Shown one piece after another: positions 49,414 through 64,000 of a DNA stretch of 64,000 nt. This DNA is from Patescibacteria group bacterium (GTDB lineage: Bacteria > Patescibacteriota > Patescibacteriia > Magasanikbacterales > UBA922). Numbering within the stretch: position 1 is the stretch's first letter; each line of letters opens with the position of its first letter. Where the stretch lies: NCBI GenBank assembly GCA_041651535.1, contig JBAZIZ010000005.1, positions 26,188 through 90,187 on the forward strand, given 5' to 3'. The position numbers and the translations under genes were made by a program. The notes beneath the pieces were generated by a model. The model was not told the DNA's origin. It searched no databases and was given only the letters and a program-made list of their open reading frames with translations.

Positions 49414-49550
49414 AAAATAAATTATGGAGAGCCCCGCCGAGTCGGGGTAAACCCCGTCAAGGCGGGGTAAAGTGGCTGGGCTTATCCCGCCTCGGTGGGT
49501 TGAAGTTGAAAGTGAAAAATTGTTTGTATTTTTAAATAAATTATGGAGAG
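49414..49550 (+). repeat. 17-bp direct repeat (aataaattatggagag) duplicating the tRNA-Ser(CGA) upstream region and 5' end, flanking a GC-rich hairpin-rich 103-bp segment
   Basis: Copies at 49414-49430 and 49534-49550. Between them is ccccgccgagtcggggtaaaccccgtcaaggcggggtaaagtggctgggcttatcccgcctcggtggg, which is not tRNA-like. Confidence 0.5.
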
Positions 49551-49634
49551 ATGTCTGAGTTGGTTGAAAGTACCGCTCTCGAAAAGCGGCAGGGTGAATA
49601 GCCCTCGCGGGTTCGAATCCCGCTCTCTCCGCCA
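49545..49634 (+). tRNA. tRNA-Ser (anticodon CGA), class II, CCA encoded
   Basis: ggagagatgtctgagttggttgaaagtaccgctctCGAaaagcggcagggtgaatagccctcgcgggttcgaatcccgctctctccgcca. Long variable arm, T-loop ttcgaat. Confidence 0.85.
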
Positions 49635-49799
49635 AGACAATTTAGTATCGGTTTGACCCGAATGCCCAGCTTTTGCTGGGTTTTTTCGTTTCTAATCTCT
49701 ACTACTCGACTAAGTGGGATTTTGGAACTAAAAGCAGGATTTTTATATCCTGTTTTTTTGTCCTTTTACTTTACTTTTATGGGTATTTAAGCTATATTT

Positions 49800-49965
49800 T
49801 AAATGCGAAACAGTAATAAATAAACGTGAGGATTAGCCAAATCATATTTTTTGGCATTTTCCTATTTACGTACAGGAACGGACATCCCGACCGAACGTAA
49901 GTAGGATCCTCACGGACACCTTTTACTGTTTCGCAACTAGGTCGGGTGTCCGTTTTTGTTTTATA
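49800..49965 (+). ncRNA. Candidate structured small RNA at the island boundary
   Basis: Nested and interleaved inverted repeats (cgaaacagtaa/ttactgtttcg; cgtgaggat/atcctcacg; ggacatcccgacc/ggtcgggtgtcc) ending in gtttttgtttt. No ORF. Confidence 0.3.
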
Positions 49966-50004
49966 AAACTGATCCCGATAGTACTAATATAATAATTAAA
50001 AACT

Positions 50005-50451
50005 ATGGACTATCAAAAAATCTGGGATAAAACCCTAAGTAAAGGAGAAGAAGTTAAATATAGCTTCTCTATTGGCGATCGGTATATAAAATTTAATCTC
50101 ATAGCCTGGGGCGTTGTAAGCGTATTTTTATTACCAGCTATGGGATTTGGTGTTTTAACTTTTCTCATAGCACTCTTTTATTATAAATTCTATTTAAGAG
50201 TAGCTAATGCTTATGCTTTCACCAACAAAAGAGTGCTGATTCATACAGGCTGGCTTTCTACCCATTCAACTAGTATTGATTATTCTAAAATTACTGATGT
50301 GCATGTTAGAGAGCCATTCTTTGATAAGGTGGTGACTAAGACTGGCGACATTGCTATAAACACAGCTGGTTCTGGCGCTATCGAAGTAATTTTAAGGCAC
50401 ATTGAGAAACCATATGAGATTAAGAAGCAATTAGATGAAATGAAAGATTAA
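50005..50451 (+). CDS. Bacterial PH-domain (bPH_2, YdbS/YdbT-like) membrane protein
   Basis: Two N-terminal TM helices followed by ...FTNKRVLIHTGWLSTHSTSIDYSKITDVHVREPFFDKVV..., typical of bPH_2. Confidence 0.6.
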   Translation: MDYQKIWDKTLSKGEEVKYSFSIGDRYIKFNLIAWGVVSVFLLPAMGFGVLTFLIALFYYKFYLRVANAYAFTNKRVLIHTGWLSTHSTSIDYSKITDVHVREPFFDKVVTKTGDIAINTAGSGAIEVILRHIEKPYEIKKQLDEMKD

Positions 50452-50560
50452 TTTAAAATATTTGTATATACAAAAAGAGCGGGTTGTTTCCGTTCTTTTT
50501 GTTTACAAATCAATGAAAATCTGGTAAAGTTATAGATGTAAAGTTTTATATATTCGTATT

Positions 50561-50776
50561 ATGAACAATAAAAAAAATCAATCAAAAATTGGTGAAAATA
50601 TAAGGAGACTTCGTCTATATAATAAAATGTCACAAGATGGTTTGTCGAAAAAAGCTGATTTGGCTTTTTATACCATTTCAAAAATAGAAGCAGGGTCTAC
50701 CCCTAATCCCACAATCGAAACAGTAAAGAAAATCGCAGACGCTCTCAGTGTTTCGCTTGATGAACTTTTAAAATAA
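50561..50776 (+). CDS. XRE-family HTH protein; likely controller (C) protein of the downstream RM gene
   Basis: IGENIRRLRLYNKMSQDGLSKKADLAFYTISKIEAGSTPNPTIETVKKIADALSVSLDEL. 71 aa. It ends 5 nt before the RM gene. Confidence 0.7.
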   Translation: MNNKKNQSKIGENIRRLRLYNKMSQDGLSKKADLAFYTISKIEAGSTPNPTIETVKKIADALSVSLDELLK

Positions 50777-50781
50777 TCTAT

Positions 50782-53463
50782 ATGAAAAAAGAAGAGGCAA
50801 AAATACAGATAACAAAACTCATTGAAAAGTATCAACGAGTTGTTGAGGCTGGGAAATTAAAAGATTACAACGAGGCCCAAACAAGAAATGAATTCATTGA
50901 GCCTTTTTTTGAATTCCTTGGATGGGACATGAGAAATTTAACTAATGACAATGAGGTTACCACCGAAGAAAATGTATCTGGAGGTAGAGTCGACTTAGCT
51001 TTTAGACTTAATAATATACCAACATTTTTCTTGGAAGCAAAAGCGATGAAGGTTGATTTGGATGAGTGGAAATGGGCAGAACAAGCTATAAATTACAGTT
51101 GGAACAAGAATGTAACTTGGGCGGTTTTAACTGACTTTGAAAGTATAAAAATTTTTAATGCTGAGATGCCACCAAAAAGCATTTCTCAGAATCTTTTTAT
51201 AGAAATAAAATGCCAAGATTATATTAATCGTTTTGATCAAATTTGGCTTTTATCAAAAGAGAGTTTTGAACAGAAACTCTTAGATAGAGAAGCTCAAAAA
51301 TGGGGTAAGCTTACGCAAAGAAAACAGGTTGGAGAAAAACTTTTTGAAGATTTAATGACTTGGCGCATTTTATTGACTAACGATTTCAAAAAACAGAATA
51401 ATTTATCAGGTGAAGAATTGGATGAAGGAGTACAAAGAATTCTTGATCGTCTCATTTTTATACGAACAGCCGAAGATAGAAAAATTGAACCTAATATACT
51501 CATTGGCATTCCTCGAGGTGGAAGATCAGAGCAGTATAAACAATTAATAAAAGTATTTCGTGATTTTGATGATGGTTTTAACTCTAAACTTTTTGCTCCG
51601 CATTATTGTGAGGAATGGAAAATAAGCGACAAGGTGGTTAGTGAAGTTATTAACGGACTTTATGAAACTAAAGATGGTTATCGATATGATTTTTCTGTAA
51701 TTTCCGCAGATGTATTAGGGGGAATTTATGAACAATATTTAAGTTTTGTTCAGGTTCGTAAAGGCGAAGACAAAACAAAATCAAAGAGAAAATCTCAAGG
51801 GATTTATTATACGCCGAAACATGTTGTGGAGTTTATTATAAAGGAAACTTTAGGGGAAGTTTTAAAGAAAACTAAACCAAAAGATTTTTCAAAAATTAGA
51901 ATTTTAGATCCTGCTTGCGGGTCAGGCTCATTTTTAGGAGCTGCATATGATAAGATTTTGGATACACTAACAAAACAAAGTCCGCAAACTTCACTTTTTG
52001 CTAAATTTAACATCTTAAAAGACAATATTTTTGGAGTTGATCTTGATGTTCAGGCTGTTGAAATAGCTCAACTTAATTTATTGTTAAAAGTGTTATCGCA
52101 AAAAACCAAGCTACCAACATTGCAACATAATTTAGCTTCTGGTAATTCACTTGTTTCTGGAGAAAATGAAAAAATCGAACAATATTTTGGTTTAAATTAT
52201 CGAGAACAAAAACCATTTAACTTTGAGCTGGAATTTAATAACGTTTTTGGTCAAGGTGGCTTTGATGTCGTAATAGGAAATCCGCCATATGTAAGAAATC
52301 GTGAATTGCCTGGTAATCTAAAATCTTTTTACGATAATAACTTCGTTACCGCATCTGGCCAATATGATATTTATCAGTTATTTTTTGAAAAGGCTATAAC
52401 GCTACTTAAAGAAAATGGGTATCTTGGTTTTATTACCTCGAATAAATATGCAATTGCTAATTATGGCGAGAAACTTCGGGAATATATTTTAAAGAATTGT
52501 GAAATTATAAAAATTATTGATGTATCCAATGTTGATGTATTTAAGGATGCTGCAACATATCCCTATATAATAATTCTTCAGAAAAAGAAAAAAATAAACA
52601 AAAAACATAAAATAAAAATAAAGAAGGTCGCAGATCTATCGGAATTATCAGACGGAAAATATGAAGAAATTGAACAGGTTGCGTTTGAAAATAATAAAGG
52701 GAAAACGTTTACTTTAAAAACTTTTCCGACTTTTTTTGATAAAATTGAAAAAGTATCAACAAAACTTGGTGAAATTGCAACGATTAAAGAAACTATACAC
52801 ACTGGAAATGTTAGAAACAAATTAATTGTAGATGAAAAAATTGATAATAACTGTAAGAAGTTGCTGGCTGGCAAAGATTGTCATAGATATAGTTTTGAGT
52901 GGCGAGGAAAATATATTCGTTATGATAAAACTTTAATAGATAAAACCAAGGGAGAATACGGCAACCTTTGTGATTCGAAATATTTTGATAATCCAAAGAT
53001 TCTTTTAAGAGAAATTGCTAACAAAATAGAGTGTTGTTTTGATGAAAATAAATATTATACGCTTAATAAAGTTTATGCAGTGTTGTTAAATGAAAATAAT
53101 TATTCATATCTATACTTATTGGCGCTATTAAACTCAAAATTGCTAACATATTATTTTAGAGAAAAGTTCGAAGAGACTCATGTTAGGGGTGGATATTTGC
53201 AATTTAAAAAAGTTTATACATCTCAAATTCCGATAGCCATAATCAATTTCAAAAATAAAGAAGAAAATAATATCTACAACAAACTTGTCAAGTTGTCGGA
53301 GCAGATGGTAAATCTTCATAAGGAGTTGCAATCTGTGGCTGTTAATACCGACAAATATAACTACTTGAAAGTCGAAATAGAAAAAGTTGATAAAGAAATA
53401 GATGAAGTAGTCTATAAGATTTATGGAATTACTGACGACGAGAAACGTGTAATTGAAAAATAA
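50782..53463 (+). CDS. Type IIG restriction-modification enzyme (MmeI-like: N-terminal PD-(D/E)xK nuclease, gamma-class N6-adenine methyltransferase, C-terminal target-recognition domain)
   Basis: Nuclease motif VDLAF...FLEAKAM. MTase motif I ILDPACGSGSFLGAA and motif IV GNPPYV. 893 aa, the size of MmeI-family enzymes. Confidence 0.75.
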   Translation: MKKEEAKIQITKLIEKYQRVVEAGKLKDYNEAQTRNEFIEPFFEFLGWDMRNLTNDNEVTTEENVSGGRVDLAFRLNNIPTFFLEAKAMKVDLDEWKWAEQAINYSWNKNVTWAVLTDFESIKIFNAEMPPKSISQNLFIEIKCQDYINRFDQIWLLSKESFEQKLLDREAQKWGKLTQRKQVGEKLFEDLMTWRILLTNDFKKQNNLSGEELDEGVQRILDRLIFIRTAEDRKIEPNILIGIPRGGRSEQYKQLIKVFRDFDDGFNSKLFAPHYCEEWKISDKVVSEVINGLYETKDGYRYDFSVISADVLGGIYEQYLSFVQVRKGEDKTKSKRKSQGIYYTPKHVVEFIIKETLGEVLKKTKPKDFSKIRILDPACGSGSFLGAAYDKILDTLTKQSPQTSLFAKFNILKDNIFGVDLDVQAVEIAQLNLLLKVLSQKTKLPTLQHNLASGNSLVSGENEKIEQYFGLNYREQKPFNFELEFNNVFGQGGFDVVIGNPPYVRNRELPGNLKSFYDNNFVTASGQYDIYQLFFEKAITLLKENGYLGFITSNKYAIANYGEKLREYILKNCEIIKIIDVSNVDVFKDAATYPYIIILQKKKKINKKHKIKIKKVADLSELSDGKYEEIEQVAFENNKGKTFTLKTFPTFFDKIEKVSTKLGEIATIKETIHTGNVRNKLIVDEKIDNNCKKLLAGKDCHRYSFEWRGKYIRYDKTLIDKTKGEYGNLCDSKYFDNPKILLREIANKIECCFDENKYYTLNKVYAVLLNENNYSYLYLLALLNSKLLTYYFREKFEETHVRGGYLQFKKVYTSQIPIAIINFKNKEENNIYNKLVKLSEQMVNLHKELQSVAVNTDKYNYLKVEIEKVDKEIDEVVYKIYGITDDEKRVIEK

Positions 53464-54350
53464 TGAACATTTTATCTCTTATTGCTAGTGAGTTGAATGG
53501 TAGAGAAATGGCTGTTTTGGTTTGGCTTTTGCTTTTTATTTGTTATGGCGTTTTTCAAAAAAATTTTCGTAGTTCATTTTTAGCTGTTTTAAAATCGTTT
53601 TTTCAAATTAAAATAATTGCCGTTTTCGTAGCAATGTTGTTTTATGTTTCCTTAATTCTGTGGGGCTTATATATTATTAAAATCTGGGATTTATATTTAG
53701 TAAAAGATACTATATTTTGGCTATTTGGTTCAGCCTTTATTCTTCTTTTAAATAGCAATAAAGCTATTCAGAATGATAACCATTTCAAAAATGTTTTAAA
53801 AGACAACATTAGATTAGTGATCTTTCTTGAATTTATTCTCACATTTTACTCCTTTGGTTTTTTAGTTGAAATGATCTTTGTTCCAATAATGTTTATTATT
53901 GTGTCTATGGGTATTTTAGCAGATATTAAAACAGAATATTCACAAATTAAAAAAATTATTGGTTCATTCTTGTCTATAATTACTATACTCCTTATTGTAT
54001 TTTTTGTTTACAAAGTAATTGATGATTATCAAAGCTTCTTATCATTAAATAATTTACGTTCATTTTTCATCCCGTTAATTCTTTCCTTTCTGTTTATGCC
54101 ATTTTTATATTTGTTTGCTGTAGTTATGGCTTATGATGATTTTTTTAGTCGATTAAAATTATTTTTAAGGAGTGACCAGATAATATACCAATATACAAAA
54201 AAACAAGTTATTAGATTATGCTTTTTTAATTTAAGCAAGCTTAATAAATTTTCTAGAAAAAATTCATCGGAGTTACAAAAAATCAAAAATAAGAGTGATG
54301 TAGAAAATATGATTTATCAATTTAAGATCGAATATTCGGATAGAATATAA
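53463..54350 (+). CDS. Hypothetical multi-pass membrane protein translationally coupled to the RM gene
   Basis: ATG overlaps the RM stop by 1 nt. 295 aa with about 6 TM helices. Confidence 0.4.
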   Translation: MNILSLIASELNGREMAVLVWLLLFICYGVFQKNFRSSFLAVLKSFFQIKIIAVFVAMLFYVSLILWGLYIIKIWDLYLVKDTIFWLFGSAFILLLNSNKAIQNDNHFKNVLKDNIRLVIFLEFILTFYSFGFLVEMIFVPIMFIIVSMGILADIKTEYSQIKKIIGSFLSIITILLIVFFVYKVIDDYQSFLSLNNLRSFFIPLILSFLFMPFLYLFAVVMAYDDFFSRLKLFLRSDQIIYQYTKKQVIRLCFFNLSKLNKFSRKNSSELQKIKNKSDVENMIYQFKIEYSDRI

Positions 54351-54372
54351 GATATTGTATAGCATTTAATTT

Positions 54373-55710
54373 TTATTCTTCTAACAGTGTCAACCTCTTT
54401 TCTTTTAGTACAATCCTACTTCTTAAATTAGCCAGCAGTTCTCGTTTCTCAATAGCACTGCCTTCCTTGAGGACATATTTGGCGTAGTCTTTCATATCCA
54501 CATCTTGTCTTTTGGATTTAATCGGCTTCTCGCCGAAGACTATGCCTTGAAATTTATTAAACCTCTCAACTTCCAGCTCTAACTTATTAAGCATACCCAG
54601 TTCGTTAATACTGACCCTATCTATTATCCTCAGCAGTTCAGCAATCAATTCTTCTTCTCTTATGTATTTATTTTTGCAGAATCTGTCTTTGCCCCGTGAG
54701 CATCCATAATAAATATAATGAGCAGTTGTACCGTCTTTTAGTTGTTTGTATTTGCTTTCCGCTGATATACCTGATCCGCAGAGTCCGCAAGTTATTAATT
54801 TAGTGAAGGCAAACTCTTTGCTTTCTCTTTGAATATTATCTCTCTTTAACTGCGCCTTAGCTTTCTCGAATAGTTCTTGAGTAATAATTGGCTTATGCTT
54901 TCCTTGATACCAATTACCACTGCCAGTCGGTCGTTCAAAGACGCCGTAGTAGAAAGTGTTATCTAACACTCTGTATATTCCGCTTAGAGTTAGAGGCTTA
55001 TTACCTCTGGTATAGAAGTTTAATTCATGGGTTAGCCAGTGATATAATCTTCGTCCGCTGTATTTTTCATAAGCAACTTTTTCAAACATCTGTTTAATAA
55101 CAGGCGCTCGTTTAGGATCAATAATCACTTGGCATTTTTTGTCATTGCGGTTTTGGTTTAAGTATCCCAGAGGTGCTACTCCAACCCATAACCCCATTTC
55201 CGCTCTAGTCCTTAATCCTCGTCTAACATTAACGCCCCTGTTGTCGTTTTCTAACTTAGCTTGCGATCCTAGAATCATCAGTAAGAATTTTTCATTAGGG
55301 TTATTAGAAAACTTCTGGCCGTAGGTTCTAATTTCTTTTAACACCCCTTGATCCATTAAATCGACAATAGCGCCAAGGTCGCCAGCGTTTCTACTGATAC
55401 GATCAGGCGCCCAAGTAAGGATGGCATTGAATTTGCCTTGCCTGATGTCGCCGATCAGCTCATTAAAAACCTGGCGTTGACCAGTCTCTTTGGCGCTATG
55501 GGATTCACGCTTAATTTCGACCACATTCAAGTTTTCTTTGACCGCCAAATCCAACATCTCTTTGACTTGGCTGTCTATTGAAAGAACTTGCCGTTCTTCC
55601 GATTCCGTCGACTTTCTGGCATAGAGGCAGTATTTCGGCGGTTCCTCGGGCTTTTGATTTGTTGTTGGAGCTTGTAGCCCGCCCAGCCCCGGGTAATTTA
55701 CGTTTATCAT
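54373..55710 (-). CDS. Large serine recombinase (integrase)
   Basis: Resolvase catalytic domain with YARKSTESEE (nucleophilic Ser), recombinase domain, zinc-ribbon CGLCG...YYGC, coiled-coil C-terminus. 445 aa. Confidence 0.8.
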   Translation of the reverse strand: MINVNYPGLGGLQAPTTNQKPEEPPKYCLYARKSTESEERQVLSIDSQVKEMLDLAVKENLNVVEIKRESHSAKETGQRQVFNELIGDIRQGKFNAILTWAPDRISRNAGDLGAIVDLMDQGVLKEIRTYGQKFSNNPNEKFLLMILGSQAKLENDNRGVNVRRGLRTRAEMGLWVGVAPLGYLNQNRNDKKCQVIIDPKRAPVIKQMFEKVAYEKYSGRRLYHWLTHELNFYTRGNKPLTLSGIYRVLDNTFYYGVFERPTGSGNWYQGKHKPIITQELFEKAKAQLKRDNIQRESKEFAFTKLITCGLCGSGISAESKYKQLKDGTTAHYIYYGCSRGKDRFCKNKYIREEELIAELLRIIDRVSINELGMLNKLELEVERFNKFQGIVFGEKPIKSKRQDVDMKDYAKYVLKEGSAIEKRELLANLRSRIVLKEKRLTLLEE

Positions 55711-55795
55711 ATACTACAATGAATGACGCAAAGAACCCAGGGCGTCTAGACCACTAGCTGTTGGTAACTAAAGCCCTTAAAAGTCTTAAGATTCC

Positions 55796-57298
55796 TTATA
55801 TATAATCCCAATCATATTTATTACCTTGCTGTCCAGTAATTCTAATCGCTCGTCCTTCATTAGGATCTCTACCTATCCTTGCTTCACCGCTTAAGTCATC
55901 AATTACTCCTAATATGGCATAAACAAAGGCATCAGCTAAATCATCATGTTTCTCGGCACCCATGGCTACTATTTGCCTGATTAAAATATCGCTACCTTCT
56001 TTAGGGAAGAGTATAGTGCCATTTTTGATCAAATGAGTAATTGATCTAAGTCTAGCAATCTTACTTAAACCGCCAGGCTTCATTTCCTTTACTGGGATGT
56101 TTTTGCTTTTTAAGTGTTGGGACAAGGCTGTTTGATAATTAACACTCTCAATACATAGTTTAGTCGGACTTGATGATAAAGCATTTGATCTTATCATACA
56201 AGCTTCAACTTGTGCTGGAAAATCTAGCCTTTCGTTTAACATGTCTGGCAACACATATATTCTTCTTGATTCTCCGTACCCATAAACCTTTACAGATACA
56301 AACGCCGTAAAATCGCCTTCTTCAGAAATCGCTAAATCTACTCCAGTCAATATCCTTTTGCAATCTTCGTATCCAGGAATTGAATCATAATAATGTATCC
56401 AGTCTGGTTTAACTACCCAGTCTTCGCCTGGAATTATTTTTAACATAAACTCTCTTTGATAAGCCGCCTCATTGGCGGTTTTCTGGTGTTCTAGTTCTAT
56501 ATCGTCCATACTTCGATATTTACCAGGCCAAATGATTTCTTCATTTTCACCAAGAAGAGGATATTGTTTATATATACCATTCATTTTATTATTTTCAATC
56601 ATTTTTCTAATGCGCATCAGGAGAGAATCTTCATGTAGCAAGTTGCCGACAAATATGAATTGAGCGCCTTTGTCTCCGATAGACATTACTTCGCTCATTA
56701 CCCAGTTAAATGTTTTGTCTCGCATCTCTTGAGTTTTAACTGAATGCAAATCTTCTACATCATCTAGAATTACTAAGTCGGGACGATGAGAACCGTGTTT
56801 CATTCCTCTAATGCTTTGGTCAATCGAGGCGGCAGTGATCCTGGCGTTATATTTAGGAATAACCAAAGAAAAGGAGCGCCATTCGTCACTTTCTTCCTGA
56901 AATGGTCCAAGGTCATTTCTCAATAGCTCATTTCGCTCAAGTTCTTCCTTTATGTTTTTTAGGTGTTGTTTGGCCTGGGGCATTGTTTGTGCGAGTATCA
57001 AGATGAACTTTCTTTGTTTTTTGCCAAGTATCGACCAAATAGGCATTGATGTCGTCATGATCGTACTTTTACCACTACCTCTAAAAGCAACAAATACAGC
57101 CGTTGTCCAATTGTCACGTTCTGTAATATCAAACATTTCATAATGGAAAGGAGCAACCTCATAAGTTACGTGTTGAGCTAAGTAAATAAGAAAAAACCAA
57201 AGATGACTATTTTTAGTTACCTCACGTCGGACAACCCGACGTTTAATAATTTCTGGCGTAATACCTAAAATACTGTTTGTCTTATTTAAAGTGTTCAT
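55796..57298 (-). CDS. Phage terminase large subunit
   Basis: Walker A FRGSGKST, Walker B DLVILDDVED, C-terminal RNase-H-like nuclease region. 500 aa. Confidence 0.7.
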   Translation of the reverse strand: MNTLNKTNSILGITPEIIKRRVVRREVTKNSHLWFFLIYLAQHVTYEVAPFHYEMFDITERDNWTTAVFVAFRGSGKSTIMTTSMPIWSILGKKQRKFILILAQTMPQAKQHLKNIKEELERNELLRNDLGPFQEESDEWRSFSLVIPKYNARITAASIDQSIRGMKHGSHRPDLVILDDVEDLHSVKTQEMRDKTFNWVMSEVMSIGDKGAQFIFVGNLLHEDSLLMRIRKMIENNKMNGIYKQYPLLGENEEIIWPGKYRSMDDIELEHQKTANEAAYQREFMLKIIPGEDWVVKPDWIHYYDSIPGYEDCKRILTGVDLAISEEGDFTAFVSVKVYGYGESRRIYVLPDMLNERLDFPAQVEACMIRSNALSSSPTKLCIESVNYQTALSQHLKSKNIPVKEMKPGGLSKIARLRSITHLIKNGTILFPKEGSDILIRQIVAMGAEKHDDLADAFVYAILGVIDDLSGEARIGRDPNEGRAIRITGQQGNKYDWDYI

Positions 57299-57690
57299 AC
57301 GTTTTCTTTTGGATTGTTTTTAAAGGAAGCCAGCTCAAGAGCTTTTTTAACGAGTTCTTCTTGTTCTGGAGTCAGTTGATCACTGACACTTAGATTGCCA
57401 CTCAGCTCTATCTTATTGGCATAAGCCTTATGATGGTGCTTGAGCCAAAACATTACCGCTGTAATGTTTCTTTCTTTAATAGCTTGGAGTAGTTGACTTT
57501 CGGCAATATCAGTGATTAATCCGCTTCCTTCAGTGACTGCCTCGTCGACTTCGAGAGCAAAGACTGGATCTTCCTTCTTCCAGCGGTACAGCGAGGCTCG
57601 GGATATTCCCGAGCGCTCGCAGGCCAGCTGAATGATTGGAGTTTTACGCAATATCTCCAAAAAGCGCTTTCTGGCTTCTTTGCTAATCAT
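57295..57690 (-). CDS. Phage terminase small subunit (HTH type)
   Basis: HTH GISRASLYRWKKEDPVF followed by ...AVMFWLKHHHKAYANKIEL, typical of P27-type TerS. It overlaps the TerL start by 4 nt. Confidence 0.6.
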   Translation of the reverse strand: MISKEARKRFLEILRKTPIIQLACERSGISRASLYRWKKEDPVFALEVDEAVTEGSGLITDIAESQLLQAIKERNITAVMFWLKHHHKAYANKIELSGNLSVSDQLTPEQEELVKKALELASFKNNPKENV

Positions 57691-57697
57691 ATAAGTC

Positions 57698-59026
57698 CTA
57701 ATTAATTTTTTTAGCTTTAAGCCCAGTTAACTTTTCCCAACGCTTGCGGATTACTTCGGCATAGACAGGAGATTTTTCCATAATAAAACAGCGCCTGCCA
57801 AGTTTAGTTGAGGCGATAAGAGTCGATCCACTACCACCGAACGGCTCAACAACGATATCATTTCTTTTGGTTAAGACTTTGATATATGGAATAAGGATCT
57901 CAATTGGCTTAGTGCCAAAGATAATTCCTTGGCCTGATGATTTCTCATCAGAAGCATTAAACTCAATGAAGTCGGTTGGACAATATTTTTTGCCCTTCTC
58001 ATATGATTCCCAATTAGGCCTACCAGAAGTAGCATAAAGAGCCGCCATAAATTCATTCTGCAGTAGTTCATCGTCTTCTGGCTCATCATTCATCTTGAAA
58101 TCAGGCGTTGATCCTAGCATGGCAAAATCATACTTGTTAAAAAACTTATATTTAGAAGCAAACCCTTGGACTCGGTTAGGTAAATGCCAAATAATGAGAT
58201 TCCGTATCTTCCAGCGCTTAGCTACTTCTGCCCACATGATCGGCAGATTTTTCCAACATTCATATGACAGGATGGAAAAATCTTCTTTAGCAACTTCTTG
58301 GATATTATCCATCCATAGCTCAACAAAGTTATCGGGTAAACTATCAGTTTCTAAGTATTTACGATCACGCTTCAAACCGAAGCCTTCTGTCGGTTGCCCG
58401 TTTTTCTTCTTGCCATGCAAGTAATCCAAAATATATGGTTCATCGGTACAGCACATATCCGCCTTTTCTCCATCCATGAGCTTGAGCACGTCGACTTCAA
58501 TAGTACTATCACCGCACATTAGTCTTGATCCGTTTAGGTCATAGACATCGCCTTTCTGAATCTCAATATTTTTAATATCCAGCTTTTCCAATTCTTTCTT
58601 CAGGTCGAATACTTCAGGAACATCTTCGATATCAAAAATGTCATCCAACTCCTCGGAAGAGAAGCCGACATCTTTAAGGAAGTTTTCATCAAATTTAGCT
58701 AGCAGTTCAAAATCAAAATCACCAGTATTTTTGTTCAGACGGATATTGAGTTCTTTTTCTTTCTCAATATCGGAAATATGAACATAGACGACTGGTACTT
58801 CTTGATAGTTTAGTTCTTTAAGAACTTCCAAGCGGAAGTGTCCACCTATGAGAATATTTTTTCGTTCATCGGCACTATTGGCGATGAGCGGATCTACACA
58901 ACCATATTTCTTAATGGATTCTTTGAGCTGATCCATTTGTTCTTGGCTGTGCTTGCGAGGATTGTATTCGCTCGCTTTCAAGTCCATGATCGGGACTTGG
59001 ACGATTTGCAACGTGTTGCTTGTCAT
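57698..59026 (-). CDS. ParB-like nuclease domain fused to a DNA N4/N6 methyltransferase
   Basis: N-terminal ParB/Srx motif (KASEYNPRKHS...DPLIAN). C-terminal MTase with TDEPY (DPPY-like) and VVEPFGGSGSTLIAS motif I. Confidence 0.7.
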   Translation of the reverse strand: MTSNTLQIVQVPIMDLKASEYNPRKHSQEQMDQLKESIKKYGCVDPLIANSADERKNILIGGHFRLEVLKELNYQEVPVVYVHISDIEKEKELNIRLNKNTGDFDFELLAKFDENFLKDVGFSSEELDDIFDIEDVPEVFDLKKELEKLDIKNIEIQKGDVYDLNGSRLMCGDSTIEVDVLKLMDGEKADMCCTDEPYILDYLHGKKKNGQPTEGFGLKRDRKYLETDSLPDNFVELWMDNIQEVAKEDFSILSYECWKNLPIMWAEVAKRWKIRNLIIWHLPNRVQGFASKYKFFNKYDFAMLGSTPDFKMNDEPEDDELLQNEFMAALYATSGRPNWESYEKGKKYCPTDFIEFNASDEKSSGQGIIFGTKPIEILIPYIKVLTKRNDIVVEPFGGSGSTLIASTKLGRRCFIMEKSPVYAEVIRKRWEKLTGLKAKKIN

Positions 59027-59418
59027 ACATTTTAAAGTTAGTTAATTAGCTTGGCGTTAATAAAAAAGACGCCCGTCTTATCGACTGCGTCTTATACATA
59101 AAAACGTATAGACAAGTTGTTGGTAAAAAATAACCAATAACTTTCAGTCAAAAAGACTAAAACGGACAATAGTGTTTGTCCTGACAGTGGTTATTTTTTT
59201 ATTAGCATTTCGCTAATTGCCAACTTTCAAGAACTATTTTAGCACTTACTGAAATAGCGGTCAAATCTTGGAAGTCGATTTTTTGGCTAAAGTAAGGGGT
59301 AATTTGTCAAGACGGTAAATGATTTTGCTCATTTTTTCTTTATATTTTAGCCATTTTCTATCTTTACATTATGTAAAAAATAGTGTAAAGTAGTGTTAAG
59401 TTAAGATTATTATATTTT

Positions 59419-59610
59419 ATGACCAAAAATAGCAAAGATGAGATAATAACTTTAAGCCAGGCTTGTGAATTATTACACTGCCACCCCAACACTCTGCGCA
59501 AGTGGGATAACAAGGGATTTTTAAAAGCGATAAGGTTCGGCGTGCGTGGTGATAGAAGATATCACAGGGTTGATATCGAAAAATTAATTTTGGAAATGAA
59601 GAATAAATAA
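59419..59610 (+). CDS. Excisionase-like/MerR-type HTH protein (candidate recombination directionality factor)
   Basis: ITLSQACELLHCHPNTLRKWDNKGFLKAIRFGVRGDRRYHRVDIEKL fits the HTH_17/excisionase pattern. Divergent from the recombinase-terminase operon. Confidence 0.5.
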   Translation: MTKNSKDEIITLSQACELLHCHPNTLRKWDNKGFLKAIRFGVRGDRRYHRVDIEKLILEMKNK

Positions 59611-59654
59611 ATGCAATGTTAAAATAATAAGAATGTAGACAGTTAAGTTTTAAT

Positions 59655-60824
59655 ATGCCTCAGATAACAAAAAAACAACTAAGAGAAAAAGTGGTTACTG
59701 TTTTAAAAAAACAGGGATATAAAGTTGGCGACCACGGTTTTTCGTTAAAAGATAATACGAGAGAAACAAAAAGAGATGTTCATTCTTTAGCCAAGAAAGA
59801 AAGAATAATTAAAAGCGAAAAGTTTATTTTGAATAATATTGATTTTATAAGCGCTAATATGGTTAGTGGCGCTGATTTAGACATAGAAAAAATAGAGCCA
59901 AAAATTATTGAAGTTAAAGAAGGTTCAAAATACGAAAAATTATTTCGATGGTGGAATTTGGTTTGGTGGAGCTTGCCCTATGAACACGCCTATGGTCGAC
60001 AGATGAGATTTGTTGTTTGGGACAAATATCATAAAGCGCCAATAGGGTTGATTGGTTTGCAGAGTCCGATTTTAAGTTGGAGCGTAAGAGATGAACATCT
60101 TGGTATAAATAAACAAGATAGGGATTATTGGGTCAATCAGTCTATGAGTGCACAAAGATTGGGAGCTTTACCACCTTATAACTATATTCTCGGCGGTAAA
60201 TTAGTGGCATCGTTAATGACAACGGATATCATTAGAAAGAAATTTGAGAAAAAGTATTCTGGCAAGAAAACTATTTTAAAAAATAGAAAATTACCATCAA
60301 AATTGCTTTTTATAACAACCACAGGAGCATATGGTAAAAGCAGTGTTTATAATAGATTAAAATATAATGGTGATGTTATTTCTAAATTTATTGGTTACAC
60401 TAAAGGTAGTGGCTCCTTTCATATCCCAAATACATTATTTGAAGACTTTATTAAATATTTGAAAAAAAGAAATTACGATGTTAAAAGAGGTTATGGTAGT
60501 GGCCCTTCAAGAAAAATGAGACTTATAAATCAAGCTATGGATTGTTTAGGAATATCAAATGGATCTAATCATGGAATACAGAGAGCTGTTTATTTGTTTC
60601 CGATGGCTAAAAATTTAGAAGATGTGATTCAAAAAGGTAAAAAACCAGCTTGGGTAAACAGGTCAATTAATGAAATAACTGAATACTGGAAAGAACGATG
60701 GATAATGCCAAGAATATCACAAAGAGAAAATTATAAAGATTTTTCCGCTAAACGTTTCATCGATGAAACTCGATTAGAAGTAGAATCTTTCTGTAAAAAT
60801 AAGGGGAAAATAAAGAAAAAATAA
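59655..60824 (+). CDS. Unknown protein, first gene of a coupled operon with NurA-like and HerA-like genes
   Basis: 389 aa. Basic N-terminus, Trp-rich core (FRWWNLVWWSLPYEHAYGRQMRFVVWDKYH). No motif I can assign. Stop is 2 nt before the next ATG. Confidence 0.5.
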   Translation: MPQITKKQLREKVVTVLKKQGYKVGDHGFSLKDNTRETKRDVHSLAKKERIIKSEKFILNNIDFISANMVSGADLDIEKIEPKIIEVKEGSKYEKLFRWWNLVWWSLPYEHAYGRQMRFVVWDKYHKAPIGLIGLQSPILSWSVRDEHLGINKQDRDYWVNQSMSAQRLGALPPYNYILGGKLVASLMTTDIIRKKFEKKYSGKKTILKNRKLPSKLLFITTTGAYGKSSVYNRLKYNGDVISKFIGYTKGSGSFHIPNTLFEDFIKYLKKRNYDVKRGYGSGPSRKMRLINQAMDCLGISNGSNHGIQRAVYLFPMAKNLEDVIQKGKKPAWVNRSINEITEYWKERWIMPRISQRENYKDFSAKRFIDETRLEVESFCKNKGKIKKK

Positions 60825-60825
60825 T

Positions 60826-62034
60826 ATGGACGTTAATAGCCAAGACAAAAAAAATTATGCCTATCTGCCAGATGATTTATTAGTTCAAATACTGGACAAA
60901 GTCCCAGACACTGTTGGAAAGATGAATAGAATGTTTGATACTCAGGATGAGCCAATAAAAGAAGGGATAGAAGATCTAAGACGCAAAAATTTAATTAATA
61001 AATTAACGAGCTTGGATTATTGTTATTCTCTTATTGCTGTAGATGGTAGTAATATTGTAGAAAAAATGACTGGTACTGATATATTGTTGGCTATGGGTGT
61101 TGGCGTTGAAGGATTATCAGAAGACAAAAACACTGAATGGGGAGAAAAAAATAATCAGTATTATAGTTGGCAAACAGTTCTTCCTCACGGAGAGGCAAAT
61201 GCTAGATTAATTCAGGGAATTATGTTTTTGATGGAATCAAGCGTATTGGCTCAATCTAATCATGAAATAAGAATAATGGATGGCAGTCATTTAAATCCAA
61301 TTATCAAAATAAATAGCATGCTTAGTGCCAGTGATGAAAACGCCGGCAAAGAGTATTGTGAAGCTTTAAAGGAATTTTTAAAAGAAAAATATAATAAGAT
61401 TATACCAGACATACCAGACATAGTATCTTCTGCCTTAAATAACGATCATATTATTGCAATGGTAAAATATAGCTCCTCTAGAGATATGCTAGATAGTCAT
61501 CTAAAAGAACACAAGGATATTAGATTGGATGATAAAACATTCTTTTCTTTGGGGCTTAACGAAGATGAATATACTACGCCATTACCTGTTGGGCAAAGTA
61601 AGGATGAGCGGCAGACATGGGGAGATCTTCATATGAGCTGTAACCTTGTTGCAATTGAGGAAAAAGATGCTTTGAATAAAGCGTTGAAGCAGTCATTAGA
61701 CCCTATAAAAACCAGAGACTCCAAGGGTCAAGAGAAAGAGTCTATCATTTATTTCACTTATTATAAACCATATCAAGATGGACCAGCTTACAGAATTGAA
61801 ATAAAAAAAACATTAGCACAAGATAAAGCCAGGCTAGAAAAATATTTACTTAGTATTAAAAAACAAATAATATTTCCAGAAATTAGAGAACCATATCCGC
61901 AATACTTAGTTGATTTAATGGCTAAAAGTATTGCAATGGGATTATTTTCAATACAAGAAGCAATTAGACTATCGCCTGATTTGAAGATAGATAGAGGTAA
62001 ATTTAATTTATTATTTAATTATAGAACTAAATAA
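60826..62034 (+). CDS. NurA-like nuclease-domain protein
   Basis: LDYCYSLIAVDGSNIV places a DGS Asp motif near aa 70, as in the NurA 5'-3' nuclease family. 402 aa. Directly precedes a HerA-like ATPase. Confidence 0.45.
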   Translation: MDVNSQDKKNYAYLPDDLLVQILDKVPDTVGKMNRMFDTQDEPIKEGIEDLRRKNLINKLTSLDYCYSLIAVDGSNIVEKMTGTDILLAMGVGVEGLSEDKNTEWGEKNNQYYSWQTVLPHGEANARLIQGIMFLMESSVLAQSNHEIRIMDGSHLNPIIKINSMLSASDENAGKEYCEALKEFLKEKYNKIIPDIPDIVSSALNNDHIIAMVKYSSSRDMLDSHLKEHKDIRLDDKTFFSLGLNEDEYTTPLPVGQSKDERQTWGDLHMSCNLVAIEEKDALNKALKQSLDPIKTRDSKGQEKESIIYFTYYKPYQDGPAYRIEIKKTLAQDKARLEKYLLSIKKQIIFPEIREPYPQYLVDLMAKSIAMGLFSIQEAIRLSPDLKIDRGKFNLLFNYRTK

Positions 62035-62042
62035 ATAAAAAT

Positions 62043-63878
62043 ATGTCAGAAACAACTAATTCAAAAACTGTCCTTGATGTAATTAATGGCAAGAACGAGC
62101 CAATTGGTATTACTAGTTCTCCTAGTAATACTTTGGATATAGTAATTGATATAACAGAAGCAAAGAAGGCGGAAAGAGCTCTGGGCCAAATGGTTTATGT
62201 TGCTTTGAAAGAAGATGGTAAGGACATTGTTGTTATCGGACAAATTATTTCTATCGAAACTCAAAATAGGTGGCATGAAGATCCGTCTTTTAAGGGCGTT
62301 ATAAAAAGACATGGAAAATTGCCACATTTAAGTGGAACTGCTGATAATAGAATTGCTACTATTAGCGTACAAGCGTGCTATCTGTTAGATAAGAATGATC
62401 CCGAGGGATATATACTCGGTACATCACCTTCTACTGGGGAGAGTGTGCAGAAAATGGATAATGATGTAATGACTGCATTAATGAAAAATCATGAAAAGCA
62501 TATAACCTATATGGGTAAAGTTTATGGGACTGACGTTGATTTACCGTTTTGGTTTAAGCATTTTGATAAAACTAATGGTGATGAATTGGGTGCCGGTGAT
62601 GCGTACCATATAGGCGTGTTTGGTAAAACTGGTTCAGGAAAAACCGTGACGTCAGCTTTTATGCTTCTTGGTTATTTGAAAAATAAAAGCAACTTAAGTA
62701 TTTTAGTTTTAGATCCTCAAAAGCAATTTTATTTAGATGCAGATTGTTTACCCGATAAAGCTAAAATTGAAGACAAAGTTAAAGCCTCGGGCTTTAGTTA
62801 TGAGAGATACAGTATATTAGATGATGTTTGTTTGCCTGGTAATTTATATGAACTTTTTGTCGAGTTATTAGTTAGTAACGGTTTTATAAAGAAAGCTTTT
62901 TATCCGATATATACTGATGAAAAAATTGAAGCTGCAAAGTTGGCAATTTTAGATTATTTAATTGGAAGGAGTAATCATCCAGCATTTTCTTTAAATAATA
63001 TTATTAATGGATCAGGAACTAAGATTGGTCGTCAAGATTTATTAAAAGATATGCTAACTAATTTTTCTTCAGTTGATGAGATTGATGAGACGAAGGGTAG
63101 TAAAACTGTTAAAAAAATAAAATATTCAACTTTTGTAACAAATATTTATGGCACTCCGACAACACAGGAGAGGCTTGTTAATAGAATTAATACAGCCTTA
63201 GGTAGATTTGATAAAGAAACTGATATGATTGAAAGATGGGAGTCTGCCTTGGAAATTTTTTCGACTAAGAAAAAAGACGGAAGTAGTAATAAAGTACAGG
63301 TTGACGATATAGTTGATAAAACTGTAAATAAAAACGGCAATTTTATTGTTCTAGATTTGAGTCCAAAGGATGGTGGGATTGAAAATGAGAATTTACAGGC
63401 TTTATTTGTAAAAATCATTGAATCTTCAATAGTTGAAGCTGGTGCAAAATTATATGCTCAAGGGAAGAAAGCTAATTGTTTGATAGTTATGGATGAGGCT
63501 CACAGATTTATTTCAAAGGAATCTCCTGATTCAAGAATTAAAGAATTGACCAATGAGATTATTGGCTCTGTCAGAACAACCAGAAAATATGGAATTGGTT
63601 ATATGTTTATTACTCAAACTATAGAATCTTTGGATGAAGAAATATTAAGACAAATGAGAATATTTGGTTTTGGTTATGGCTTAACAGCGGGAAGTGAGTT
63701 AAGAAAAATAAGCGAGATAGTTAATAACCCATCAGCTATCCAGTTGTATAAGTCATTTATTGATCCAAGTAGCAATAATAAATTTCCTTTTATGTTTTTT
63801 GGACCGATCTCTCCATTATCATTTACCGGGTCGCCGTTGTTTATGGAAGTTTATAAAGAAATTGCAAAATTTAAATAA
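62043..63878 (+). CDS. HerA/FtsK-superfamily ATPase (DUF87/HerA-like, with N-terminal HAS-barrel-like region)
   Basis: Walker A GVFGKTGSGKT and Walker B CLIVMDEAHRF (hhhhDEAH) at HerA-like spacing. 611 aa. Confidence 0.7.
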   Translation: MSETTNSKTVLDVINGKNEPIGITSSPSNTLDIVIDITEAKKAERALGQMVYVALKEDGKDIVVIGQIISIETQNRWHEDPSFKGVIKRHGKLPHLSGTADNRIATISVQACYLLDKNDPEGYILGTSPSTGESVQKMDNDVMTALMKNHEKHITYMGKVYGTDVDLPFWFKHFDKTNGDELGAGDAYHIGVFGKTGSGKTVTSAFMLLGYLKNKSNLSILVLDPQKQFYLDADCLPDKAKIEDKVKASGFSYERYSILDDVCLPGNLYELFVELLVSNGFIKKAFYPIYTDEKIEAAKLAILDYLIGRSNHPAFSLNNIINGSGTKIGRQDLLKDMLTNFSSVDEIDETKGSKTVKKIKYSTFVTNIYGTPTTQERLVNRINTALGRFDKETDMIERWESALEIFSTKKKDGSSNKVQVDDIVDKTVNKNGNFIVLDLSPKDGGIENENLQALFVKIIESSIVEAGAKLYAQGKKANCLIVMDEAHRFISKESPDSRIKELTNEIIGSVRTTRKYGIGYMFITQTIESLDEEILRQMRIFGFGYGLTAGSELRKISEIVNNPSAIQLYKSFIDPSSNNKFPFMFFGPISPLSFTGSPLFMEVYKEIAKFK

Positions 63879-63885
63879 CTATTTA

Positions 63886-64000
63886 TGGGGACTGAAATGG
63901 GCGTTAAAGAATATCAACAATATTGTAAAGACAAACTTTTGAGTTTATATGATTCAGTTGATGTTGAATGGAATCCATTTAAAAAATTTAATGTAGGCAA
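63886..64000 (+). CDS. Hypothetical protein, 5' fragment (continues beyond window); likely fourth gene of the same operon
   Basis: ATG 8 nt after the HerA-like stop. MGTEMGVKEYQQYCKDKLLSLYDSVDVEWNPFKKFNVGK... Confidence 0.3.

What the first reader, a model, noticed from the sequence alone, without database searches (positions are those of the whole stretch)
49635..64000. Higher-GC integrative phage-like island beside tRNA-Ser(CGA), carrying RM, recombinase and packaging genes but no visible structural genes
Immediately after tRNA-Ser(CGA), composition and codon usage shift. The serine recombinase, terminase and ParB-MTase region is visibly richer in G+C than the core genes. The content is: C-protein plus MmeI-like type IIG RM, a large serine recombinase, TerS/TerL, a ParB-methyltransferase fusion, an Xis-like HTH, and the NurA/HerA-like operon. 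TerS/TerL adjacent to an integrase, without capsid or tail genes in 14 kb, resembles satellite/PICI-like or cryptic prophage organisation. Mobile elements with defence cargo are poorly described in reduced-genome lineages.
Basis: partly seen in the sequence, partly recalled or inferred. Interest (0 to 1): 0.75.

Follow-up and report, generated by a model that had tools for sequence, protein, structure and literature searches.

The report
Capsid-less terminase island beside tRNA-Ser
A 17-kb mobile island sits at a tRNA-Ser gene of a tiny-genome (Patescibacteria) bacterium; it has a serine integrase and a complete phage DNA-packaging enzyme but no capsid genes, carries anti-phage cargo, and belongs to a large family that I could not find described and that probably spreads in the capsids of a helper phage.

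Summary
tRNA-Ser(CGA) ends at 49634, and every gene after it has foreign codon composition: GC3 is 0.23-0.44, against 0.11-0.15 in the neighbouring host genes. Only a 4.7-kb block (54373-59026) is strongly G+C-rich (0.39 against 0.29). All the gene calls are confirmed.

The island is larger than the finding. It runs about 17.3 kb, to 2.9 kb past the window end. There two assemblies of the same element diverge exactly at a conserved terminal sequence.

More than 120 related loci, almost all labelled as Patescibacteria MAGs, share one backbone:
- a regulator, then ParB-methyltransferase, TerS and TerL;
- a cargo slot, then a large serine recombinase;
- a second cargo slot, then a tRNA whose 3' end faces the recombinase (31 of 31 loci).

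The cargo is defence genes. None of these loci has portal, capsid, tail, lysis or replication genes. Their TerL proteins form one clade. Its sister clade sits in real phages that do have portal, protease and capsid genes. One relative carries a junction that joins the two island ends.

Best reading: a phage-satellite-like integrative island that packages itself with its own terminase into a helper phage's capsids. Integration is well supported. Helper dependence is inferred. I found no published description.

The parts
49545..49634 (+). tRNA-Ser(CGA), the integration target. Its 3' end (CCGCCA, 49629-49634) is the shared core at both island junctions.
   Evidence: ARAGORN and Rfam tRNA at 53.7 bits. 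In 31 of 31 related loci the first tRNA beyond the recombinase points its 3' end at the island.
49635..49668 (+). tRNA-proximal terminal arm of the island (P'): AGACAATTTAGTATCGGTTTGACCCGAATGCC.
   Evidence: Conserved next to the tRNA in four loci of the same recombinase subfamily (alignment A4). The same arm is fused to the far-end arm at the end of the L021 contig.
49664..49757 (+). Two terminator-like hairpins just inside the island.
   Evidence: Consensus scan only.
49804..49935 (+). 130-nt nested hairpin of unknown role, lying inside the island.
   Evidence: Minimum free energy -62.7 kcal/mol, z -7.8. No Rfam family matches. It is single-copy in the window.
50005..50451 (+). Cargo: bPH_2 membrane protein.
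   Evidence: Pfam PF03703, E 5.5e-14. A homologue (201 bits) sits between TerL and the recombinase in L015-L017.
50561..50776 (+). Cargo: control (C) protein of the restriction-modification system.
   Evidence: HTH_3, E 4e-12. PADLOC Control_protein, E 5e-10.
50782..53463 (+). Cargo: type IIG restriction-modification enzyme (MmeI/Eco57I-like).
   Evidence: PADLOC REase_MTase_IIG, E 1e-136. Pfam Eco57I, TaqI_C, N6_Mtase and MmeI_Mtase.
53463..54350 (+). Cargo: 295-aa multi-pass membrane protein of unknown function.
   Evidence: No hit in Pfam, PHROGs or PADLOC.
54373..55710 (-). Backbone: large serine recombinase (integrase).
   Evidence: Resolvase + Recombinase + Zn_ribbon_recom. phrog_95 integrase, E 1.5e-63. 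The closest solved relative is SPbeta YokA (SprA). It lies downstream of TerL on the same strand in 95 of 121 island-clade loci.
55796..57298 (-). Backbone: terminase large subunit.
   Evidence: phrog_38, E 4.6e-77. Walker A K77, the Walker B D179/D180/E182/D183 cluster, and nuclease D321/D452/D453/D456 are invariant in 24 island TerLs. The island TerLs are monophyletic.
57295..57690 (-). Backbone: terminase small subunit (N-terminal HTH).
   Evidence: Hits to phrog_4044, 309, 4102 and 24579, all TerS families. Conserved in 67 loci.
57698..59026 (-). Backbone: ParB_N-DNA methyltransferase fusion.
   Evidence: ParB_N + N6_N4_Mtase. phrog_498, E 9e-80. It is the first gene of the packaging operon in about 75 loci.
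59027..59418 (.). Divergent regulatory region between the packaging operon and the HTH_17 gene.
   Evidence: Best promoter-like site on the - strand is at 59264-59236 (10 of 12 matches, TG-extended); a + strand site is at 59363-59391. These are consensus matches only.
59419..59610 (+). Backbone: HTH_17 (Xis/MerR/mad1-like) regulator. It occupies the position held by the S24 LexA/CI-like repressor in most relatives.
   Evidence: HTH_17, E 1.5e-9. Homologues lie divergent from ParB-methyltransferase in L011, L058, L066, L068, L070 and L081. GC3 is 0.44, like the backbone.
59655..64000 (+). Cargo operon DruA(DUF4338)-NurA-HerA. Beyond the window it continues with a 193-aa protein, DUF2779, a 225-aa sigma-like protein (f24) and the far-end arm, which ends at window-equivalent about 66,925.
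   Evidence: DruA, E 5e-66; NurA, E 2e-10; HerA/DUF87. Contig continuation. Breakpoint between L001 and L003. Conserved far-end module from alignment A3.

Best explanation
The region is one site-specifically integrated mobile island of about 17.3 kb. It belongs to a large family that, in the collections searched, is found almost only in Patescibacteria.

**Shown**
- A large serine recombinase has placed the island at the 3' end of tRNA-Ser(CGA). The crossover lies in or next to the CCGCCA tail.
- The backbone is a regulator (HTH_17 here, an S24 LexA/CI-like repressor in most relatives), a divergently transcribed operon ParB-methyltransferase > TerS > TerL > recombinase, and often a sigma-factor-like protein near the far end.
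- Three slots carry interchangeable defence cargo. Here they hold a C-protein-controlled type IIG restriction-modification system and a DruA-NurA-HerA-DUF2779 operon.

**Inferred**
- The regulator is relieved by SOS, or by infection with a helper phage of the sister TerL lineage.
- The recombinase then excises the island as a circle.
- TerS recognises a pac-like site on the island, and TerL cuts and pumps island DNA into procapsids made by the helper.
- The ParB-methyltransferase modifies the DNA so that it survives restriction in the next host.
- The recombinase integrates the island at the same tRNA.

The host gains defence genes and probably interference with the helper phage. The island gains transfer without encoding a virion.

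The confidence of 0.6 is for the whole statement, including helper-dependent packaging. For the part that says it is a discrete island integrated by a serine recombinase, with a conserved backbone and defence cargo, I would put it at about 0.9.
For: **Architecture**
- The same gene order occurs in about 80 genome loci and about 60 IMG/VR loci.
- The gap between TerL and the recombinase varies from 0 to 8 kb. It is filled with a type III restriction-modification system plus reverse transcriptase, SNase nucleases and Sie-like proteins, and no head genes.
- The slot behind the repressor holds CBASS, Thoeris and caspase-TIR genes.

**Ends**
- The tRNA orientation is the same in 31 of 31 loci.
- A copy of the tRNA 3' end is repeated at the far end in L027 (19 of 20 nt), L033 (25 of 30), L057 (17 of 20) and L060. 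Delimited element sizes are 11.4-17.3 kb.
- For this island, L001 and L003 are identical up to ...GAGTTGCCCGC and unrelated after it.
- The far-end module is conserved in 6 loci. The near-end arm is conserved in 4 loci.
- The L021 contig end carries the near-end arm joined to the far-end arm through TGGCGG. This is an attP-like circle or tandem junction.

**Origin**
- Island TerLs form one clade of 121 sequences, none with an adjacent portal or capsid gene.
- The sister clade has 16 sequences, 15 of them followed by a portal or capsid homologue. The portal-MuF, protease and capsid calls themselves were checked with PHROGs on L140 and L128.
- Catalytic residues of both TerL domains are invariant.

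**Composition**
- Backbone genes share one composition (GC3 0.30-0.44). Cargo genes share another (0.23-0.30). The neighbouring host genes are at 0.11-0.15.
Against: - Nothing shows packaging or a helper phage. No virome or read data could be examined, and no circular contig was found.
- No circle junction or empty site was found for this particular island. Both metagenome scans returned nothing.
- No replication module was found, so it is unclear how concatemers for headful packaging would arise.
- A TerL acting without its own portal must fit a foreign portal. The nearest phage TerLs are only 37-41% identical.
- The flank of the L003 type is not clearly host-like in composition (GC3 0.27).
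Confidence: 0.6

Rival explanations
1. A domesticated or defence-oriented module. The terminase pair is kept to sabotage the packaging of invading phages, or to start in-situ (lateral-transduction-like) packaging that mobilises the adjacent defence cargo and chromosome. It would not serve to propagate the island as a satellite genome.
For: - All three variable slots hold defence genes.
- There is no replication module.
- Packaging that starts at a pac site in terS would run through TerL, the cargo, the recombinase and the second cargo slot, and then across the tRNA into host DNA.
- Lateral transduction of defence islands by phages and PICIs is documented (PMC12829572, listed).
Against: - The island keeps an integrase, conserved att arms at both ends and an attP-like junction in a relative. 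Together these mark a discrete self-transferring unit.
- Interference and satellite transfer are not mutually exclusive.
Confidence: 0.15
2. Only the 4.7-kb G+C-rich four-gene cassette (ParB-methyltransferase, TerS, TerL, recombinase) is the mobile unit. It would have inserted into an older tRNA-linked defence island.
For: - The sharp G+C step lies at about 54.35 kb and 59.1 kb.
- The flanking cargo has a different GC3.
- The recombinase stop codon is only 22 bp from the neighbouring gene.
Against: - No conserved arms or repeats lie at the cassette edges. Conserved arms do lie at the tRNA and at the far end.
- HTH_17 and f24, which lie outside the cassette, share its composition and recur in relatives.
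- In relatives, cargo is inserted inside the cassette, between TerL and the recombinase. The cassette therefore behaves as a backbone interrupted by cargo slots, not as an insert.
Confidence: 0.1
3. A decayed (cryptic) prophage that has lost its structural, lysis and replication genes.
For: The packaging genes and the ParB-methyltransferase are of phage origin. Real phages carry the sister TerL clade with the same ParB...TerS-TerL order.
Against: - The identical capsid-less layout is found in more than 120 loci across many Patescibacteria lineages.
- The ORFs are intact and the TerL catalytic residues are invariant.
- The island TerL clade is monophyletic and contains no structural genes at all.
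- Independent decay would give varied remnants scattered among phage lineages.
Confidence: 0.05
4. A complete but unrecognised virus whose capsid and portal genes are too divergent to detect.
For: Several conserved families (f5/f6/f41, f9, f17) have no annotation.
Against: - This island has no unannotated gene apart from a 295-aa membrane protein and a 193-aa protein.
- The universally conserved set is too small for a virion. The unknown conserved genes are mostly 135-210 aa.
- Portals and capsids of the sister phages are readily detected by PHROGs.
Confidence: 0.03

Closest known systems
Phage-inducible chromosomal islands (PICIs, including SaPIs)
   Same: - 11-17 kb in size, site-specifically integrated, with the integrase at one end.
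- A repressor-controlled divergent regulatory region.
- A phage-derived terS to redirect packaging.
- No virion or lysis genes.
- Accessory slots filled with defence genes.
   Different: - The integrase is a large serine recombinase, not a tyrosine recombinase.
- The island also encodes TerL and a ParB-methyltransferase.
- No primase/replicase or origin module was found.
- The host is Patescibacteria.
- Helper induction is unproven.
Capsid-forming PICIs (cf-PICIs)
   Same: They encode both TerS and TerL of their own, so packaging does not depend on the helper's terminase.
   Different: cf-PICIs also encode the capsid, portal, protease and head-tail connectors. None of these is present here.
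Tycheposons of Prochlorococcus (bioRxiv 10.1101/2020.12.28.424599)
   Same: - tRNA-targeted integrative elements in a streamlined genome.
- Modular cargo.
- A PICI-like subset carries terS or a capsid gene.
- A minority use large serine recombinases.
   Different: - Tycheposons mostly use tyrosine recombinases and carry replication modules.
- According to that paper, the PICI-like ones carry no extra cargo.
- No TerL or ParB-methyltransferase backbone is reported for them.
SPbeta-type large serine recombinase (YokA = SprA) systems
   Same: It is the closest solved recombinase (E 4e-12), with the same three-domain architecture. It performs unidirectional integration, with excision expected to need a directionality factor.
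   Different: SprA belongs to a complete 134-kb prophage and targets spsM, not a tRNA. No directionality factor has been identified here.

Membership tests
PICI / SaPI-type phage satellite | Site-specific integrase and defined att sites | tested here: met
   A large serine recombinase is present. The tRNA-proximal and far-end arms are conserved. The breakpoint lies at the far end. A relative has an attP-like junction. The integrase type is serine, not tyrosine.
PICI / SaPI-type phage satellite | Own replication module (primase/replicase plus origin) | tested here: not met
   No replication protein was found in this island or among the conserved families by Pfam or PHROGs.
PICI / SaPI-type phage satellite | Packaging-redirection gene (terS or equivalent) with no virion or lysis genes | tested here: met
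   TerS and TerL are present. No portal, capsid, tail or lysis family was found in the window island genes searched (PHROGs, Pfam); DUF2779 gave only its own Pfam family, and the 193-aa protein and f24 gave no Pfam or PHROG hit. Among 87 cargo representatives, no head or packaging family was hit by two or more members.
PICI / SaPI-type phage satellite | Master repressor relieved by a helper phage, with helper-dependent excision, replication and packaging | not testable with these tools
   Only the layout is seen: a divergent regulator, which is HTH_17 here and an S24 repressor in 44 loci.
Capsid-forming PICI | Encodes the major capsid protein, portal, protease and connectors | tested here: not met
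Temperate tailed prophage | Portal, capsid, tail and lysis modules | tested here: not met
   They are absent here and in all 121 island-clade loci. They are present next to sister-clade TerLs.
Large serine recombinase family | Resolvase catalytic domain, recombinase domain and zinc-ribbon domain | tested here: met
   Pfam PF00239, PF07508 and PF13408 are all above their cut-offs.
Large serine recombinase family | Short crossover core without long direct repeats | tested here: met
   Only the CCGCCA (TGGCGG) core is shared by the two junctions. No long repeat lies within the island.
Type IIG restriction-modification (MmeI-like) | A single polypeptide with an N-terminal nuclease, a gamma-class N6 methyltransferase and a TaqI_C-like specificity domain | tested here: met
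Druantia | DruA together with DruB-DruE (or at least the DruE helicase) | tested here: not met
   Only DruA matches (E 1.7e-96). The neighbouring genes are NurA, HerA, a 193-aa protein and DUF2779.
MADS | The eight-gene mad1-mad8 set | tested here: not met
   Only weak mad1-like (HTH_17) and mad8-like (HerA) hits were found.

The most novel reading that the evidence does not exclude
These islands are a distinct, ancient class of phage satellite that is largely specific to Patescibacteria. Each keeps a complete terminase holoenzyme, a ParB-methyltransferase and often a sigma-like factor, but no capsid, portal or replication genes. The class would descend from a single capture of a phage packaging module. 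It would now serve as the main shuttle and storage platform for defence systems in these reduced genomes, using still-unknown Patescibacteria phages of the sister TerL lineage as helpers.
Probability: 0.4. Interest if true: 0.85.

Novelty: new variant of a known kind. Interest (0 to 1): 0.72.

Why it matters
- Patescibacteria are a large share of bacterial diversity, yet their mobile elements and phages are barely known. A recognisable, very common island family gives a handle on horizontal transfer and on immune-gene turnover in these symbionts. The TerL search gave 3,664 hits with E <= 0.001 among the 8,000 candidates scored, and 70 of the species-representative genomes were recovered with only six peptide patterns.
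- The sister TerL clade points to candidate helper phages.
- The island shows a satellite strategy not covered by current satellite classes: it brings the whole terminase and borrows the capsid.
- Its serine recombinases, with mapped tRNA attachment sites, could become integration tools for organisms that currently lack genetics.
- A relative of the island lies in Ca. Microsyncoccus archaeolyticus (L015), which to my knowledge is kept in co-culture, so the model may be testable.

Tried and rejected
- **Repeat of the tRNA 3' end.** I searched the window and the rest of the contig for a long direct repeat of the tRNA 3' end. None was found. This fits a serine recombinase with a very short core.
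- **Metagenome scans.** I scanned metagenome contigs for the far-end arm, and then for the tRNA itself, hoping for empty sites or circle junctions.
- **Empty site via the neighbouring gene.** I looked for an empty site through the neighbouring P-type ATPase. The exact protein occurs only in the same context. Homologues at 71-75% identity are not syntenic and have no tRNA-Ser nearby.
- **Circular contigs.** I looked for terminal overlaps in all fetched loci. None was found.
- **Rfam.** Scans of the window, the tRNA-proximal noncoding region and the far end returned only tRNAs.
- **Deposited phages.** The best TerL match in INPHARED is 26% identical, so no cultured helper or relative is available.
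- **Literature.** Seven full-text searches found no description of this architecture. Absence from that library is not proof of novelty.
- **Rejected readings.** Druantia and MADS were rejected for the DruA-NurA-HerA operon. 'Cryptic prophage' was also rejected (see rivals).

Full report
**1. Observation**

The window is AT-rich. Sequence 1-49544 has G+C 0.287. tRNA-Ser(CGA) lies at 49545-49634 on the + strand.
- a bPH_2 membrane protein;
- an HTH_3 control protein;
- an 893-aa type IIG restriction-modification enzyme;
- a 295-aa membrane protein;
- on the - strand, a large serine recombinase, TerL, TerS and a ParB_N-methyltransferase fusion;
- on the + strand, an HTH_17 protein, DruA (DUF4338), NurA and HerA.

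The G+C jump is confined to 54373-59026 (0.394). The cargo on either side is 0.30-0.32.

Third-position G+C separates three classes:
- the neighbouring host genes, 0.11-0.15;
- cargo genes, 0.23-0.30;
- backbone genes (recombinase, TerL, TerS, ParB-methyltransferase, HTH_17 and the f24 gene beyond the window), 0.30-0.44.

So the whole stretch after the tRNA is compositionally foreign, as claimed. The eye-catching G+C rise comes from one 4.7-kb block.

**2. True extent**

The window is part of a 93-kb contig (ERZ27247363 k141_1926505). HerA is followed by a 193-aa protein, a DUF2779 protein and a 225-aa protein that I call f24.

Two assemblies of the same element (L001 and L003) are identical up to ...TTAACCCGAGTTGCCCGC and unrelated after it. 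That point is window-equivalent position about 66,925, so the island is about 17.3 kb.
- L003 and L005 continue into an AT-rich flank that encodes a secreted protein.
- L001 and L002 continue into a G+C-richer unit with an f59-like ORF. In L060 that ORF follows a second serine recombinase (layout).
- A second small recombinase element therefore seems to sit in tandem in some strains.

**3. The family**

TerL has thousands of relatives. Context look-ups, a scan of species-representative genomes (70 loci, nearly all labelled Patescibacteria) and two IMG/VR scans gave about 150 loci. I annotated them by ORF calling, phmmer and clustering.

The recurring layout, in order, is:
- defence cargo slot A;
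- a DUF2188 protein and an S24 LexA/CI-like repressor, transcribed leftward;
- an unknown 135-210-aa protein, then ParB-methyltransferase, TerS and TerL, transcribed rightward;
- cargo slot B, 0-8 kb long;
- the large serine recombinase;
- cargo slot C;
- a tRNA.

In this island's subfamily an HTH_17 gene replaces the S24 repressor.

The cargo is defence-related:
- Slot A holds CBASS (SMODS + Cap15), Thoeris (ThsA, ThsB, 8xMP) or caspase-TIR genes.
- Slot B holds a type III restriction-modification system plus a reverse transcriptase, SNase nucleases and Sie-like proteins. A PHROG scan of 87 representative slot-B proteins gave helicases, methyltransferases and reverse transcriptase. No head or packaging family was hit by two or more members.
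- Slot C holds type IIG, type I or type III restriction-modification systems.

No replication protein was found anywhere.

**4. Ends and recombination**
- In all 31 loci with a tRNA beyond the recombinase, the first tRNA is on the opposite strand, with its 3' end facing the recombinase. The targets are Ser, Gln, Glu, Asn, His and Asp tRNAs.
- In four loci a copy of the tRNA 3' end recurs at the far side: L027 19 of 20 nt, L033 25 of 30, L057 17 of 20, and L060 15 nt.
- Delimited elements measure 11.4 to 17.3 kb.
- Within this island's recombinase subfamily, the tRNA-proximal arm (...GGGTnnnnCGATAAnAAATTGTCT|TGGCGG-tRNA) is conserved in four loci.
- A far-end module of about 170 nt is conserved in six loci. 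It starts exactly at TGGCGG and contains ATTATAAGGG, GGGTCGGGGTC and GAGACAAAT-AGACA...GTGTCTC motifs.
- The end of the L021 contig carries the tRNA-proximal arm (46 of 48 nt identical to L066's) joined through TGGCGG to the far-end arm. That is the junction expected from an excised circle or a head-to-tail tandem.
- Only the 6-nt core is shared by the two junctions. No long repeats exist inside the island. Both points fit a serine recombinase.
- The closest solved recombinase is SPbeta YokA, also known as SprA.

**5. Origin of the packaging module**
- The island TerL is at most 26% identical to any TerL in deposited phage genomes.
- In IMG/VR, TerLs that are 42% or more identical to ours always show the island layout.
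- Most TerLs at 37-41% identity (16 loci, listed, including L128, L131, L133, L135 and L137-L145) are followed by large co-directional head-module genes. PHROGs confirmed portal(-MuF), protease and major capsid protein in L140 and L128.
- In a neighbour-joining tree of 148 TerLs, the island TerLs form one clade of 121 sequences. Of these, 95 have a recombinase within 10 kb downstream, 13 have none in range, 13 are on contigs too short to tell, and none has a portal or capsid homologue.
- The sister clade has 16 sequences, 15 of them followed by a portal or capsid homologue.
- Walker A, Walker B and the nuclease aspartates are invariant across 24 divergent island TerLs.

This pattern argues for a single capture of a phage ParB...TerS-TerL module, followed by long-term evolution as a capsid-less element. 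It argues against repeated prophage decay.

**6. The f24 backbone gene**

f24 lies beyond the window, next to the far-end arm.
- It has backbone-like composition (GC3 0.40).
- It belongs to a tightly conserved family: 278 hits, and the 120 listed are 61-97% identical.
- It lies inside such islands in other genomes.

I read f24 as a possible phage-type sigma-like factor, with moderate confidence.

**7. Mechanism**

Shown:
- The island is a discrete unit integrated by a serine recombinase at tRNA-Ser(CGA).
- It has a conserved backbone and exchangeable defence cargo.
- It derives from a phage packaging module.

Inferred:
- The packaging operon is de-repressed.
- The island excises as a circle.
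- TerS recognises a site on the island, and TerL drives packaging into a helper's procapsids.
- The ParB-methyltransferase protects the DNA by methylation.
- The island re-integrates at the same tRNA in the next host.

Open points:
- How substrates for packaging are made without a replication module.
- Which portal the TerL docks on.
- What induces the HTH_17-type islands.

**8. Comparison and novelty**

The island works like a PICI in size, integration, regulatory layout, terS, absence of virion genes and defence hotspots. It fails the PICI replication-module criterion and uses a serine integrase. It also carries TerL and a ParB-methyltransferase. It shares own-terminase packaging with cf-PICIs but has none of their capsid genes. 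Tycheposons are the nearest ecological analogue, with different hallmark genes. Seven full-text searches found no description of this family. I rate it a new variant of a known kind, the phage satellite or integrative defence island.

**9. Caveats**
- The tree is neighbour-joining, without support values.
- Locus retrieval was seeded on TerL, so islands that have lost TerL are under-sampled. One such island, L171, was seen.
- MAG taxonomic labels are imperfect. A few loci are labelled Gammaproteobacteria or Methanoregula, and I assume these are mis-binned.
- The excision junction was seen in a relative, not in this island.

Noticed in passing
window 49804-49935 (+): A 130-nt nested hairpin: a 13-bp outer stem, a 9-bp inner stem and two hairpins. 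Minimum free energy is -62.7 kcal/mol and z is -7.8. It lies between the tRNA and the bPH_2 gene. It matches no Rfam family and is single-copy in the window. It could be an ncRNA, a MITE-like insert or a DNA-level site.
   Followed up: partly
window 49424-49500 (+): A G+C-rich pair of hairpins (CCCCG/CGGGG) lies directly upstream of tRNA-Ser(CGA). The 17 nt AAATAAATTATGGAGAG that open it are duplicated at the start of the tRNA (49534-49551), so it begins like the tRNA's 5' end. Neither ARAGORN nor Rfam calls it a tRNA (z -3.6).
   Followed up: partly
window 59655-63878, continuing in L001 11843-13928: A DruA(DUF4338)-NurA-HerA-193aa-DUF2779 operon. DruA occurs without the other Druantia genes and is coupled to a NurA/HerA end-processing pair. 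It is not a classified defence system, and no paper links DUF4338 with NurA/HerA.
   Followed up: partly
[not shown]
   Followed up: yes
L001 14884-15129 compared with L003 5375-6281: Strain-level polymorphism exactly at the island's far end. Some assemblies continue into a G+C-rich unit with an f59-like ORF, which in L060 follows a second 421-aa serine recombinase. Others continue into an AT-rich flank. This suggests a second small recombinase element stacked in tandem at the same site.
   Followed up: partly
L095, L101, L104, L105 and L106: Several islands carry two full-length TerL genes in tandem (about 520 aa each).
   Followed up: no
L171 1-5115: An island variant has ParB-methyltransferase, an extra methyltransferase and TerS next to a serine recombinase but no TerL. 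It is a TerS-only form closer to classical PICIs.
   Followed up: no
L026/L085, L108/L112, L099/L117 and L120/L122 (same contigs); L034/L083 (same MAG): Some genomes carry two terminase islands, sometimes only about 13 kb apart.
   Followed up: no
L001 14640-14700 (far-end noncoding region): Five close repeats of (A)GTCAGG(G/A)A follow the f24 stop codon. After them comes a hairpin with GAGACA/TGTCTC motifs that are conserved in six loci. These are candidate protein-binding sites (pac, operator or recombinase accessory sites).
   Followed up: partly
window 12071-15790 (+): A 1239-aa protein with no Pfam domain lies downstream of an ECF sigma factor gene. It accounts for the other moderately G+C-rich stretch of the window (0.34-0.36).
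   Followed up: no
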